Source of the DNA: a virus | Lineage: Duplodnaviria; Caudoviricetes | IMG/VR virus record: IMGVR_UViG_3300027917_004314 | Direction: 5' to 3' (one strand) | Length of the DNA stretch: 64,000 bases | Shown: positions 39,347 to 41,756 of the stretch, piece after piece | Layout: each line of letters opens with the position of its first letter | How positions within the stretch are numbered: position 1 is the first letter of the stretch | The notes under the pieces: generated by a model | What the model was told of the DNA's origin: nothing | Database searches by the model: none | What the model saw: only the letters and a program-made list of their open reading frames with translations | Position numbers and translations under genes: made by a program

Positions 39347-39634
39347 ATGAGCAAATGGAATTATTTTGATGTTGTAACCGTTGACGGGTACGATTTTCCT
39401 GTTGTACCGCAAGCTAATTTTAGTTTTCTTTCTACTGCAATCAGCTTTCTAAACAGGAGTAGTTACGTCATAGAATATTCTTTTGATGGTACAACTTTAC
39501 ATGGGGATCTAAACCCTTCTGACAGTTCTAGTGGAGTAATGTGTGACAACCGTGTAGAAAGCAAAGTATGGTTTAGGGCAGTTGATGGGTATGGAGATGT
39601 AAGAGTCGAGGCTTGGGGGAACTCTGGTAGATAA
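39347..39634 (+). CDS. Small beta-sandwich virion protein
   Basis: AGGAG RBS; two DGY motifs in 95 aa. Confidence 0.7.
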   Translation: MSKWNYFDVVTVDGYDFPVVPQANFSFLSTAISFLNRSSYVIEYSFDGTTLHGDLNPSDSSSGVMCDNRVESKVWFRAVDGYGDVRVEAWGNSGR

Positions 39635-39939
39635 TGTCTTTTATTAAACGTTCAGATGGCACGACCGTTTATGCTGGCAGACACCCAACTGTACGTCCGT
39701 CATTAGCTGAGATTAGGCACGGTGGTGCTGCGACTAATGAACCAGAGAGCCCAGAAGAAAAAATGTGGCTAAAACAGGTTGTGGCAGCCATGATGCCTTT
39801 TGGTGAAGCTGCTGCTTTTGATTATTATCCAAGCGAGGAAGCGGAAATTATTTCCATGTTGTGGGGCATTTATTATAATACCTGTCCTACTGTTCGAAGA
39901 GATTTCAACGACGAATATTTTAGCCCATCAGATCATTAA
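39634..39939 (+). CDS. Hypothetical protein
   Basis: TAATG overlap; 101 aa. Confidence 0.6.
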   Translation: MSFIKRSDGTTVYAGRHPTVRPSLAEIRHGGAATNEPESPEEKMWLKQVVAAMMPFGEAAAFDYYPSEEAEIISMLWGIYYNTCPTVRRDFNDEYFSPSDH

Positions 39940-40417: not shown

Positions 40418-40456
40418 AAAGTCACTATTCGAGTGGCAAAAAAAGGAGAAGGAAAA

Positions 40457-40953
40457 ATGACAGAACAAGTTAAGAATGGAGTAGTCGTTTGGTCGTAGGC
40501 CCCTTGGTGCAGTAATGTGCCAAGAGCATTGGGTGAATTGCTGGGAACCTCAGCACGTAACGGTGGTGGCAATCAGCAGCCAAGTTTGTGAAGTTTATTT
40601 AGTAGCAAAAAGGTTCAGAGACTAGAAAAGTGAGTAGAACAGCGATAATCTTTTCCACGAGCGCCCGATATCCTTTTAGGATAAAAATATAGTCCGACAC
40701 TCTAAAGAAATTTAGAGATCTGGTTTAAACGTCCAGAGCAACAGATGTTAACGACAAAAGAGGAATTGGATTTATTAAGCCTGATGCTGGAGATGATGAC
40801 ATGTTTGTCCATTTCAGCAACATCGTCGGTGAGCCAGGTAAGTTTAAGTCTTTGACCGCCGGTCAGAGAGTATCTTTTACTATCGGAGCCAACAATAAGG
40901 GTCCTCAGGCAGAAAACGTAGTAATTCTAGAAGAACCAAGTACGGAAGTATAA
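40457..40953 (+). CDS. csp: Cold-shock domain protein, spliced: join(40457..40493,40748..40953), 80 aa
   Basis: AGGAG RBS; splicing restores NGVVVW-F-NDKRGIGFI (RNP1) and DMFVHFS (RNP2), GQRVSF, KGPQAENV. Confidence 0.92.
40494..40747 (+). ncRNA. ORF-less group I self-splicing intron (254 nt) in the csp gene
   Basis: Follows exon U, ends in G; P GAATTGCTGGGAA, Q AATCAGCAGCC, R GGTTCAGAGACTA, S AATATAGTCC; GNRA-capped hairpins CTTGGTGCA-GTAA-TGTGCCAAG and CTCTAAA-GAAA-TTTAGAG. Confidence 0.93.
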
Positions 40954-40974: not shown

Positions 40975-41439
40975 ATGCCGAGATATAGAGCTGTGCACCA
41001 CAAGAAGCGGGAGCCAGAACGAGATAGGTACATATTACGGAATACTTCTAAGTATGATATTAACCTGGGTGATTTAAGGTACAAGATCCCTGCTGGGCAA
41101 GCTAGAGACTTATTGTCGCCAACAGCACATCTAGAACTTGAAGATATTATGTTATCCGTAGCTTCTGGATCTATTAGCAAAAGGCTAGGGAAAACCCTGA
41201 TTGTAGCATACAGCACTTTAACACCAGCTCCGCCTTCATATGAGGAGGCGGAGCCCTCTCGTGTATCATTTCCACAAAGGATCAAGTCTTCTATTATATT
41301 GGGTGTTGGCGATGTAGATGAAGAAATCAAAAGCCTTATATTGTCTGAAGACGAAGAATATCTTAAAAAACTAGAAGAAGGTGATCTGTTTGATGGCAGT
41401 GAAGTGGCGCCTATCATAGCCAAGGGGGAAGATTCATAA
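40975..41439 (+). CDS. Hypothetical protein
   Basis: 154-aa ORF, AAGGA upstream, TAATG overlap with next gene. Confidence 0.7.
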   Translation: MPRYRAVHHKKREPERDRYILRNTSKYDINLGDLRYKIPAGQARDLLSPTAHLELEDIMLSVASGSISKRLGKTLIVAYSTLTPAPPSYEEAEPSRVSFPQRIKSSIILGVGDVDEEIKSLILSEDEEYLKKLEEGDLFDGSEVAPIIAKGEDS

Positions 41440-41756
41440 TGTTAAGACCCAAAAAAATCTGTGAAATTTGTAGTTTCCCGAAAAGCAATGTATTGCACAG
41501 GCACCACATTGTTCCTAGACAAGACGAAAGATGCACCAATTCGGACGGCAATTTAGCTATATTATGCCCCACTTGTCATTCTTTGGTACATTCGGGACAT
41601 TTTGTTATTATTGGTGTATATCCATCTACAAGTGGGCAACAGCTTGTGTGGTTTAAAAATGGCGAGGAGCCGCCGTTTCCAAAAGAATTTTGGTTTATTA
41701 AGGAAAATCCACTGGTTAAAACGTTAAAAGGCGACGAGGATGATCTGCCAGACTAA
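41439..41756 (+). CDS. Free-standing HNH endonuclease
   Basis: CEIC..LHRHHIVP..NLAILCPTCHSLVH, intact HNH residues. Confidence 0.85.
   Translation: MLRPKKICEICSFPKSNVLHRHHIVPRQDERCTNSDGNLAILCPTCHSLVHSGHFVIIGVYPSTSGQQLVWFKNGEEPPFPKEFWFIKENPLVKTLKGDEDDLPD

What the first reader, a model, noticed from the sequence alone, without database searches (positions are those of the whole stretch)
40457..40953. Group I intron interrupting a cold-shock protein gene
A 254-nt ORF-less intron (40494-40747) with P/Q/R/S core, exon-terminal U and terminal G splits the Phe codon of the conserved W-F-N motif. Splicing restores an 80-aa Csp; unspliced RNA stops after 13 codons (TCG TAG). Phage group I introns are mostly known from nucleotide/DNA metabolism, lysis, packaging and structural genes. 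A Csp host gene is unusual and suggests feedback: an RNA chaperone whose synthesis needs a ribozyme to fold, possibly gated by temperature.
Basis: partly seen in the sequence, partly recalled or inferred. Interest (0 to 1): 0.85.

Follow-up and report, generated by a model that had tools for sequence, protein, structure and literature searches.

The report
Self-splicing intron in phage cold-shock gene
A large uncultured marine-sediment phage carries a genuine 254-base self-splicing-type (group I) intron inside its small cold-shock RNA-binding protein gene; this is an unusual host gene, but the intron looks like an ordinary selfish element rather than a temperature switch.

Summary
Rfam's group I intron model hits window 40479-40717 at 90.7 bits against a cut-off of 50. 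It is the only such hit in the 161-kb virus record. Removing 40494-40747 (5' exon ends in U40493, intron ends in G40747) joins TGG T|TT AAC. This gives an 80-aa cold-shock-domain protein collinear, without gaps, with intron-less homologues. Unspliced RNA stops at TAG 40496-40498. A syntenic relative (L002) has the uninterrupted gene with TGGTTTAA at that exact site. Helices P2, P3 and P5-P8 show compensatory changes across related introns. Those relatives sit in capsid, dnaE, RNR, terminase and DNA polymerase genes.

About 25 related csp lineages lack the intron. It was seen only here (in two marine-sediment samples) and in a ~95% identical wetland contig. That sporadic spread fits a selfish element.

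The record's only HNH endonuclease gene lies 692 bp downstream. Orthologues of it coexist with intron-less csp in two other contigs, so it is probably not a dedicated homing partner.

No RNA data exist, so splicing itself is not shown. The Csp-feedback and temperature-gating idea has no support. Earlier notes of this scan report similar csp introns on other phage DNA.

Verdict: a new member of a known kind, of moderate interest.

The parts
40444..40448 (+). Shine-Dalgarno-like AGGAG, 8 nt before the csp start codon
   Evidence: Read from the sequence.
40457..40493 (+). csp exon 1: 12 codons plus the first base of the Phe codon (M T E Q V K N G V V V W + T). It ends in U40493, the 5' splice site.
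   Evidence: Collinear with intron-less homologues.
40494..40747 (+). ORF-less group I intron, 254 nt, subgroup-IA-like
   Evidence: Rfam RF00028 at 90.7 bits, E 6.6e-22. Compensatory changes in its helices. Absent from the syntenic locus L002.
40496..40498 (+). In-frame TAG that stops translation of unspliced RNA after 13 codons
40496..40501 (+). Candidate internal guide sequence UAGGCC. G99-C500-C501 pair with G91-G92-U93 to form P1 (3 bp, with U93.G99 as the wobble pair). U96-A97-G98 pair with U748-U749-A750 to form P10.
   Evidence: Read from the sequence. It lies directly 5' of P2, as in the related introns of L003 and L119. This is inference, not experiment.
40504..40523 (+). P2 hairpin, 8 bp, with a GUAA (GNRA) loop
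   Evidence: The wetland variant carries G40507A together with C40520T, which is compensatory.
40528..40695 (+). Catalytic core. P3 is 528-535/662-669. P4 is 539-544/573-578. P5 is 548-551/566-569. P5a is 554-556/563-565. P6 is 579-581/612-614. P6a is 585-589/605-609. P7 is 618,620-624/690-695. P8 is 670-674/678-682. J8/7 (683-689) reads AAAAAUA.
   Evidence: Rfam alignment and covariation table.
40625..40655 (+). P7.1-type hairpin between P7 and the 3' strand of P3, the hallmark of subgroup IA
   Evidence: An insertion relative to the Rfam consensus. Conserved in the L003 intron 1 and L119 introns. Recovered in the minimum-free-energy fold.
40700..40717 (+). P9 hairpin, 7 bp, with a GAAA loop
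40720..40736 (+). Extra 3' hairpin (P9.1-like), 4 bp with a 9-nt loop. It is followed by an 11-nt tail, 40737-40747.
   Evidence: A homologous hairpin and a GAUAACA..UG tail occur in the introns of L003, L119 and Shewanella phage 1/4.
40747..40747 (+). Terminal guanosine (omega G), the 3' splice site
   Evidence: It is the only position that restores the CSD reading frame. The tail aligns with the tails of related introns.
40748..40953 (+). csp exon 2: the last two bases of the Phe codon plus 67 codons and TAA. It contains RNP1-like RGIGFI and RNP2-like MFVHF.
   Evidence: Pfam CSD E 8.4e-19. PHROG 729, cold shock protein.
41439..41756 (+). Free-standing HNH endonuclease gene, 105 aa. It lies 692 bp downstream of the intron and is the only PF01844 hit in the 161-kb record. 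Its link to the intron is uncertain.
   Evidence: Pfam HNH E 2.8e-8, PHROGs. Absent from L002 and L149, present in L147 and L148.

Best explanation
The element is a genuine ORF-less group I intron of the phage subgroup-IA type. It lives as a selfish or neutral insertion in the single cold-shock-domain gene of a large tailed phage from marine sediment.

Inferred mechanism, from established group I chemistry:
1. The csp message is transcribed with its neighbours on the + strand.
2. Ribosomes that start at 40457 stop at the TAG three bases into the intron. This keeps them out of the ribozyme core.
3. The intron folds into P1-P9 plus a P7.1 and a P9.1 hairpin.
4. A free guanosine attacks after U40493, which is held in a short P1 by the guide sequence at 40499-40501.
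5. The freed exon-1 3'-OH attacks after G40747, with exon 2 aligned by a 3-bp P10.
6. The ligated mRNA reads ...V-W-F-N... and encodes an 80-aa Csp. No full-length Csp can be made without splicing.

The intron has no endonuclease gene of its own. Its spread, if any, would depend on recombination with co-infecting relatives. Breaks made by a nearby free-standing HNH endonuclease might help.

Shown here: the intron's identity, its boundaries, restoration of the frame, the intron-less alleles and the structural covariation. Inferred: splicing activity, how the intron moves, and the absence of a dedicated regulatory role.
For: - Rfam RF00028 scores 90.7 bits against a cut-off of 50, over the full-length model. 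It is the only hit in the 161-kb record.
- Exon 2 matches CSD profile positions 9-64, and exon 1 supplies the rest.
- The spliced protein aligns without gaps across the junction to L002, L147, L148 and L149 at about 65% identity.
- L002 is syntenic on both sides, has an uninterrupted csp reading GTATGGTTTAAT, and has no Rfam hit.
- Compensatory base changes occur in P2, P3, P5, P6, P6a, P7 and P8 across seven related introns.
- A wetland contig about 95% identical carries G40507A together with C40520T, which keeps a P2 pair.
- The fold z-score is -2.98, and the hairpins P2, P3, P7.1, P8, P9 and P9.1 are recovered.
- The distribution is sporadic. Eleven csp protein clusters, 13 IMG/VR loci and L147-L152 are all intron-less.
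- The identical intron-bearing allele occurs in a second marine-sediment sample from another study.
[quoted passage not shown] 1993, as cited in PMC3984707).
Against: - No RNA data exist. No transcriptome run holds the locus, so splicing is not demonstrated.
- P1 is only 3 bp.
- J8/7 reads AAAAAUAU where six aligned relatives have GA(A/U)GAUAU. The position equivalent to Tetrahymena G303, which contacts P1 (PMC10020454), is A here. Among 20 non-redundant related introns, 18 have G and 2 have A. The variant is therefore rare but does occur naturally, and it could lower activity.
- Absence of a regulatory role is argued from distribution only.
Confidence: 0.8

Rival explanations
1. Regulatory reading. 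The intron makes Csp synthesis depend on ribozyme folding. Folding is temperature-sensitive and is helped by the Csp RNA chaperone itself, which would give a feedback loop or a thermal gate.
For: - Csp family proteins melt nucleic-acid structure and act as RNA chaperones (review PMC3017892).
- Group I folding is prone to kinetic traps, as described in the same review.
- This intron has a weak 3-bp P1 and an unusual J8/7, so it might depend on help more than most.
- Unchecked earlier notes of this scan report group I introns at the same T|TT of other, unrelated phage csp genes.
Against: - The intron is absent from about 25 related csp lineages, including the syntenic L002.
- The same intron family sits in capsid and dnaE genes.
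- The insertion site TGGTTTAA is simply the most conserved DNA of the gene, which is where homing elements usually land (PMC3984707).
- I found no conserved feature that is specific to the csp context.
- Host Csps would be present in any case.
Confidence: 0.08
2. Mobility reading, which is compatible with the best explanation. The ORF-less intron is moved by the neighbouring free-standing HNH endonuclease (41439-41756). One route is collaborative homing, in which the enzyme cuts intron-less csp. The other is trans homing, in which the enzyme cuts near its own slot in HNH-less genomes and the intron 0.7 kb away is co-converted.
For: - The only PF01844 HNH gene and the only group I intron in 161 kb lie 692 bp apart.
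- The HNH gene is missing from the intron-less relatives L002 and L149.
- There are precedents. T4 mobE mobilises the nrdB intron in trans (PMC2790892). F-CphI acts with the ORF-less psbA intron of cyanophage S-PM2 (PMC6083498, PMC3984707).
Against: - An orthologue of the HNH (54% identity) sits in the same slot in L147 and L148, whose csp is intron-less and carries GTTTGGTTTA at the site. The enzyme therefore coexists with an unoccupied site.
- The HNH has diverged about as much as its neighbours, so it appears to have been in that slot since before the two lineages diverged.
- Other relatives carry an unrelated 209-aa HNH_5 gene directly upstream of an intron-less csp. The area is a general hot spot for endonuclease genes.
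Confidence: 0.2
3. Decay reading. The intron no longer splices, and csp in this phage is a dead gene.
For: - J8/7 has A where most relatives have G.
- P1 is only 3 bp.
- P5 has a U.U mismatch.
- There is no RNA evidence.
Against: - Both exons are intact and in frame, and all CSD motifs are present.
- The CM score is as high as for the related introns.
- The diverged wetland copy keeps P2 through a compensatory change and improves another pair, which indicates selection on the structure.
- A at the J8/7 position occurs in 2 of 20 other introns.
Confidence: 0.07

Closest known systems
Phage subgroup-IA group I introns in conserved protein genes, for example T4 td and nrdB, SPO1 and Bastille DNA polymerase, and Twort nrdE and orf142. 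The nearest by sequence here are the introns in Shewanella phage 1/4 RNR alpha, Vibrio phage 1.187.O terminase, Bacillus phage Eyuki-type DNA polymerase and Flavobacterium phage FpV21.
   Same: - The core is the same: P3-P8 with AAUUGCUGGGAA, AAUCAGCAGCC, GUUCAGAGACUA and AUAUAGUCC.
- There is an extra hairpin between P7 and the 3' strand of P3.
- P2 and P9 are capped by GNRA loops.
- The 5' exon ends in U and the intron ends in G.
- An in-frame stop follows the 5' splice site closely.
- The insertion is in the most conserved stretch of the host gene.

Blastn gives 73-86% identity over the core.
   Different: - The host gene is a cold-shock-domain gene. That class is not among those listed for phage introns in the review PMC3984707, and three full-text searches did not find it.
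- P1 is very short, 3 bp.
- J8/7 has A at the position of the usually conserved G.
Two related introns in the major-capsid-like gene of IMGVR_UViG_3300030060_004558 (L003 and L121), and the dnaE intron of large metagenomic contigs (L119, L122, L124, L128).
   Same: These are the closest relatives found, at 79%, 69% and 78% identity over 145-195 nt. They share the P7.1 hairpin, P9, a further 3' hairpin and a GAUAACA..UG tail before the terminal G.
   Different: The host genes and the guide sequences differ. Some dnaE copies (L120, L123) carry a LAGLIDADG-type ORF, whereas this intron has none.
ORF-less introns moved by free-standing endonucleases: T4 mobE with the nrdB intron (PMC2790892), and cyanophage S-PM2 F-CphI with the psbA intron (PMC6083498).
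   Same: An ORF-less intron with a free-standing endonuclease gene less than 1 kb away, which is present in some related genomes and absent from others.
   Different: Here one gene separates the two elements. Orthologues of the HNH coexist with an unoccupied csp site. No cleavage data exist.
The cspA mRNA thermosensor of enterobacteria (Rfam RF01766)
   Same: It is an RNA structure in a csp transcript that can couple Csp synthesis to temperature. A copy sits in front of an unannotated cspA in Escherichia phage Cyrano.
   Different: It is a 5' UTR conformational switch, not a ribozyme. There is no sequence or structural relation, and RF01766 does not hit the window.

Membership tests
Group I intron (Rfam RF00028) | Conserved catalytic core: P3-P8 with the P, Q, R and S elements | tested here: met
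   90.7 bits against a gathering score of 50, E 6.6e-22, model positions 1-253 of 253.
Group I intron (Rfam RF00028) | Helices supported by compensatory changes among homologues | tested here: met
   Both-side changes occur in P2, P3, P5, P6, P6a, P7 and P8 across seven introns. The wetland variant carries G40507A with C40520T. The alignment was made with MAFFT and was not fitted to the structure.
Group I intron (Rfam RF00028) | 5' splice site after a U that forms a U.G wobble with an internal guide sequence (P1) | tested here: met
   U40493 can pair with G40499, followed by G92-C500 and G91-C501. That is only 3 bp. The guide sequence lies directly 5' of P2, as in the relatives.
Group I intron (Rfam RF00028) | Terminal G at the 3' splice site, and removal restores the host reading frame | tested here: met
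   G40747. The spliced ORF of 80 aa is collinear with intron-less homologues. An intron-less allele is in L002.
Group I intron (Rfam RF00028) | Guanosine-dependent self-splicing | not testable with these tools
   No RNA run holds the locus. This needs in vitro splicing or RT-PCR.
Subgroup IA | Extra pairing(s) P7.1/P7.2 between P7 and the 3' strand of P3 | tested here: met
   One 6-bp hairpin at 40625-40655 sits in that position as an insertion relative to the consensus. It is conserved in L003 intron 1 and in L119. Only one hairpin is evident, so I do not assign IA1, IA2 or IA3.
Cold-shock domain protein (Pfam PF00313) | Significant match to the CSD profile, with RNP1 and RNP2 motifs | tested here: met
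   Exon 2 gives E 8.4e-19 and 67.7 bits against a cut-off of 27. RGIGFI and MFVHF are present. Exon 1 supplies G-V-V-V-W plus the first base of the Phe codon. PHROG 729 is also matched.
Collaborative or trans homing pair (free-standing endonuclease plus ORF-less intron) | Endonuclease gene close to the intron-bearing gene | tested here: met
   The HNH gene at 41439-41756 is 692 bp from the intron, with one gene between them.
Collaborative or trans homing pair (free-standing endonuclease plus ORF-less intron) | The endonuclease is found with the intron and is absent from genomes with an unoccupied site | tested here: not met
   L147 and L148 carry the HNH orthologue (54% identity) together with an intron-less csp.
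Collaborative or trans homing pair (free-standing endonuclease plus ORF-less intron) | The endonuclease cleaves the intron-less allele or nearby DNA | not testable with these tools
   This needs a cleavage assay.

The most novel reading that the evidence does not exclude
The W-F codon junction of phage csp genes is a recurrent, selected landing site for group I introns. Synthesis of the phage's own RNA chaperone would then depend on correct folding of a ribozyme that the chaperone helps to fold. This would be an autocatalytic, temperature-sensitive switch for Csp production during infection in cold sediments. The weak P1 and the altered J8/7 of this intron would make it especially dependent on such help.
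Probability: 0.07. Interest if true: 0.8.

Novelty: new member of a known kind. Interest (0 to 1): 0.36.

Why it matters
It corrects the annotation. Gene callers would miss this csp or truncate it, for example to the 50-aa ORF at 40801-40953.

It adds a small RNA-binding protein gene to the kinds of phage genes known to host group I introns. The known hosts are mostly DNA-metabolism, packaging, lysis and structural genes.

It gives a compact natural test case, with a 37-nt exon 1 and a 254-nt intron, for two questions: how translation and splicing interact, and whether an RNA chaperone can affect splicing of its own message.

The polymorphic HNH genes around csp also make this locus a candidate for studying how ORF-less introns persist and move.

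Tried and rejected
1. RNA evidence for the spliced junction. Two searches of public runs found no RNA holder. The one possible cDNA run (X6) held only the conserved cores of other group I introns.
2. Intron-less variants in the same samples. No joints were seen in the contigs of X1 or X3. Contigs drop rare variants, so this says little.
3. More intron-bearing csp alleles.
 - The junction 20-mer found nothing in metagenome contigs.
 - A 14-mer gave only chance hits in IMG/VR.
 - A composite pattern (TGGT, then the core, then GTTAAY) gave 76 IMG/VR loci, none next to a csp.
 So I could not verify the recurrence reported in earlier scan notes.
4. Unannotated csp hits in cultured phages (Cyrano, Acinetobacter MD-2021a) as possible split genes. 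They are uninterrupted, and Cyrano has the ordinary cspA thermoregulator.
5. An alternative 3' splice site at G40717, where the Rfam alignment ends. Rejected, because it would give W-Y-L-V-stop. The extra hairpin and tail are also conserved in the relatives.
6. An alternative 6-bp P1 between UUUGGU (40488-93) and GCCAAG (40519-24). Rejected in favour of the P2 hairpin, which is homologous to P2 of the relatives and is kept by a compensatory change in the wetland variant.
7. Exon-exon pairing GUCGUU/AACGAC flanking the intron. About 5% of random positions in the window show as much, so I do not claim it.
8. The idea that UGGUUUAA in the 3' hairpin loop is a duplicated target site. The UAAAC loop motif is shared with introns in other genes, so the likeness is probably chance.
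9. The megablast search of the phage collection with the locus found nothing.

Full report
**1. What is there**

The window is bases 64001-128000 of a 161-kb IMG/VR virus record. IMG/VR classes the record as 'provirus', and CheckV estimates it at about 40% complete. The genes around the finding all lie on the + strand and belong to a virion module. For example, 38039-39295 matches PHROG 1645, a virion structural protein, at E 3e-86.

At 40457 an ATG, preceded by AGGAG, opens a reading frame that runs M-T-E-Q-V-K-N-G-V-V-V-W. It then reads TCG TAG.

Rfam's group I intron model matches 40479-40717 at 90.7 bits, against a gathering score of 50. The E-value is 6.6e-22 and all 253 model positions are covered. 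This is the only Rfam hit above threshold in the window, and the only group I hit in the whole record.

Translation from 40750 gives a 67-aa sequence that matches Pfam CSD at E 8.4e-19. The match covers profile positions 9-64 of 66, so only the first beta strand is missing.

Joining T40493 to T40748 gives TGG T|TT AAC and an 80-aa protein. No other pair of cut points restores W-F-N, so the boundaries are fixed: the intron is 40494-40747, 254 nt. The exon ends in U and the intron ends in G. The longest ORF inside the intron is 36 aa.

**2. Independent support for the boundaries**

One IMG/VR contig (L002, from a 116-kb record) is syntenic over at least six genes. It carries an uninterrupted 83-aa csp that reads GTAGTATGGTTTAATAAC at the site, and it has no Rfam hit at all.

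The spliced window protein aligns without a gap across the junction to L002, L147, L148 and L149, at about 65% identity.

The Rfam alignment ends at G40717, straight after P9. The related introns in L003, L119 and Shewanella phage 1/4 have the same layout as the window: P9, a further hairpin, then a tail of 11-15 nt of the form GAUAACA..UG. This places the terminal G at 40747.

**3. Anatomy (window coordinates)**

| Element | Position | Note |
|---|---|---|
| P1 | G91-G92-U93 with G99-C500-C501 | U93.G99 wobble; only 3 bp |
| P10 | U96-A97-G98 with U748-U749-A750 | one guide sequence, UAGGCC, spans both exons |
| P2 | 504-511 / 516-523 | GUAA loop |
| P3 | 528-535 / 662-669 | |
| P4 | 539-544 / 573-578 | |
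| P5 | 548-551 / 566-569 | one U.U mismatch |
| P5a | 554-556 / 563-565 | |
| P6 | 579-581 / 612-614 | |
| P6a | 585-589 / 605-609 | |
| P7 | 618, 620-624 / 690-695 | |
| P7.1 | 625-630 / 650-655 | between P7 and the 3' strand of P3 |
| P8 | 670-674 / 678-682 | |
| P9 | 700-706 / 711-717 | GAAA loop |
| 3' hairpin | 720-723 / 733-736 | followed by the tail 737-747 |

A MAFFT alignment of seven related introns was not fitted to any structure. It shows changes on both sides of a pair in P2, P3, P5, P6, all five pairs of P6a, P7 and P8.

A 244-nt wetland contig covers exon 1 and the 5' half of the intron at about 95% identity. It carries G40507A together with C40520T, which turns a G-C pair of P2 into A-U. 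It also carries G40509A, which turns a G.U pair into A-U.

The free-energy fold recovers P2, P3, P7.1, P8, P9 and the 3' hairpin, with a z-score of -2.98.

The hairpin between P7 and the 3' strand of P3 places the intron in subgroup IA. I do not assign a finer class.

**4. Two unusual points in the core**

First, P1 is only 3 bp.

Second, J8/7 reads AAAAAUAU where the six aligned relatives have GA(A/U)GAUAU. The second of these G positions corresponds to Tetrahymena G303. In the cryo-EM structures, G303 contacts a base pair of P1 and helps to position it (PMC10020454). The variant is therefore rare but natural. It may weaken docking of P1, or it may be matched to the short G-C-rich P1. Only an assay can tell.

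**5. Relatives of the intron**

In cultured phages, blastn finds the core at 73-86% identity in four places:
- an unannotated gap of the Flavobacterium FpV phages;
- the split RNR alpha gene of Shewanella phage 1/4;
- the split terminase gene of Vibrio phages;

The closest relatives come from metagenomes. Two introns lie 180 nt apart in a capsid-like gene (L003 and L121), at 79% and 69% identity. One lies in a PolIII alpha (dnaE) gene on contigs of up to 355 kb, at 78% identity. Some copies of the dnaE intron carry a LAGLIDADG-type ORF.

So the family occupies the classical kinds of host gene, and csp is the odd one.

**6. Distribution in csp**

These are all uninterrupted:
- eleven protein clusters related to the L002 Csp;
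- 13 IMG/VR loci found with a Csp alignment;
- six contigs that encode P0005 and P0008.

The intron-bearing allele was seen only in three places:
- the source sample;
- a second marine-sediment sample from another study, where it is identical;
- the wetland contig.

In the wetland contig, exon 1 has diverged about as much as the intron (2 of 37 nt against 7 of 148 nt). This suggests the intron has been inherited with the gene in that small lineage. A soil contig holds the intron's middle part with three differences, but its flanks are unknown.

This patchy picture is what selfish introns show.

**7. The HNH gene**

41439-41756 encodes a 105-aa HNH endonuclease (Pfam E 2.8e-8; PHROGs). It is the only PF01844 hit in 161 kb, and it lies 692 bp from the only intron. 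It is absent from L002 and L149, where its two neighbouring genes abut each other. That pattern recalls two known cases: T4 mobE, which moves the nrdB intron in trans (PMC2790892), and collaborative homing (PMC3984707, PMC6083498).

However, L147 and L148 carry an orthologue (54% identity) in the same slot next to an intron-less csp whose site reads GTTTGGTTTA. The L149 group has a different 209-aa HNH_5 gene directly upstream of an intron-less csp.

The csp neighbourhood is thus a general hot spot for endonuclease genes. A dedicated partnership between this HNH and the intron is possible but not favoured. I put it at about 0.2.

**8. The feedback idea**

Csp proteins do act as nucleic-acid melters and RNA chaperones (PMC3017892). 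A ribozyme inside the chaperone's own message is an attractive picture. But nothing in the sequence data singles out this intron as adapted to csp. It is missing from most relatives, its family lives in other genes, and its site is simply the most conserved DNA of the gene. I keep the idea as the novel case at about 0.07.

**9. Earlier notes of this scan**

Earlier notes report group I introns of 263-264 nt at the same T|TT of the (K)WF codon in other phage csp genes. Their follow-ups also concluded that these are selfish mobile introns. Those genes and introns share no short words with mine, so they are not close copies. My own pattern search for further examples found none. The recurrence therefore stays a lead that I could not confirm.

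**10. Verdict**

The intron call and the gene model are solid. Splicing itself is inferred. The regulatory reading is unsupported. This is a new host-gene class for a well-known kind of element: a new member of a known kind, of moderate interest.

Noticed in passing
window 40683-40689: J8/7 of the intron reads AAAAAUA, whereas six aligned relatives and the Rfam consensus have G at two of these positions. At the position equivalent to Tetrahymena G303, 18 of 20 related introns have G and 2 have A.
   Followed up: partly
window 40484-40489 and 40750-40755: Exon 1 GUCGUU and exon 2 AACGAC are perfectly complementary and bracket the intron. The intron-less alleles lack this pairing. About 5% of random positions in the window show as much, so it may be chance.
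   Followed up: partly
window 40721-40731: The loop of the intron's 3' hairpin contains UGGUUUAAACG, which is nearly the ligated exon junction UGGUUUAACG. Part of this (UAAAC) is shared with related introns in other genes, so the likeness is probably coincidental.
   Followed up: partly
window 39634-39939: A 101-aa ORF with no Pfam or PHROG hit has no counterpart in the syntenic loci L002, L147, L148 and L149. It is another insertion or deletion difference in this neighbourhood.
   Followed up: no
L149:2379-3008 (also L150, L152): A 209-aa HNH_5 endonuclease gene sits directly upstream of an intron-less csp and overlaps its start by 8 nt. It is unrelated to the window's HNH.
   Followed up: partly
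L003:443-1154 (- strand); the same in L121: A capsid-like gene of IMGVR_UViG_3300030060_004558 is interrupted by two related ORF-less group I introns (267 and 265 nt, 91.9 and 102.8 bits), only 180 nt apart. Both follow a GCU codon and both begin AAACAAAA.
   Followed up: partly
L122:1877-2069 (- strand): A group II intron D1-D4 match (RF02004, 146 bits) lies about 160 nt downstream of the group I intron in the same dnaE gene. The dnaE frame breaks just after PDIDS in this contig only, so the gene seems to carry both intron classes.
   Followed up: no
L120:1573-2400 and L123:1410-2200: These copies of the dnaE group I intron carry an ORF with a LAGLIDADG-like motif (…ILGLIISDGCL…). The otherwise near-identical introns in L119, L124 and L128 have a non-coding extension instead.
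   Followed up: no
L153:487-905 (Escherichia phage Cyrano OV696614.1): An unannotated cspA-type gene with a full cspA thermoregulator 5' UTR (RF01766, 187.6 bits) lies between hicB and dnaE in this phage record.
   Followed up: partly
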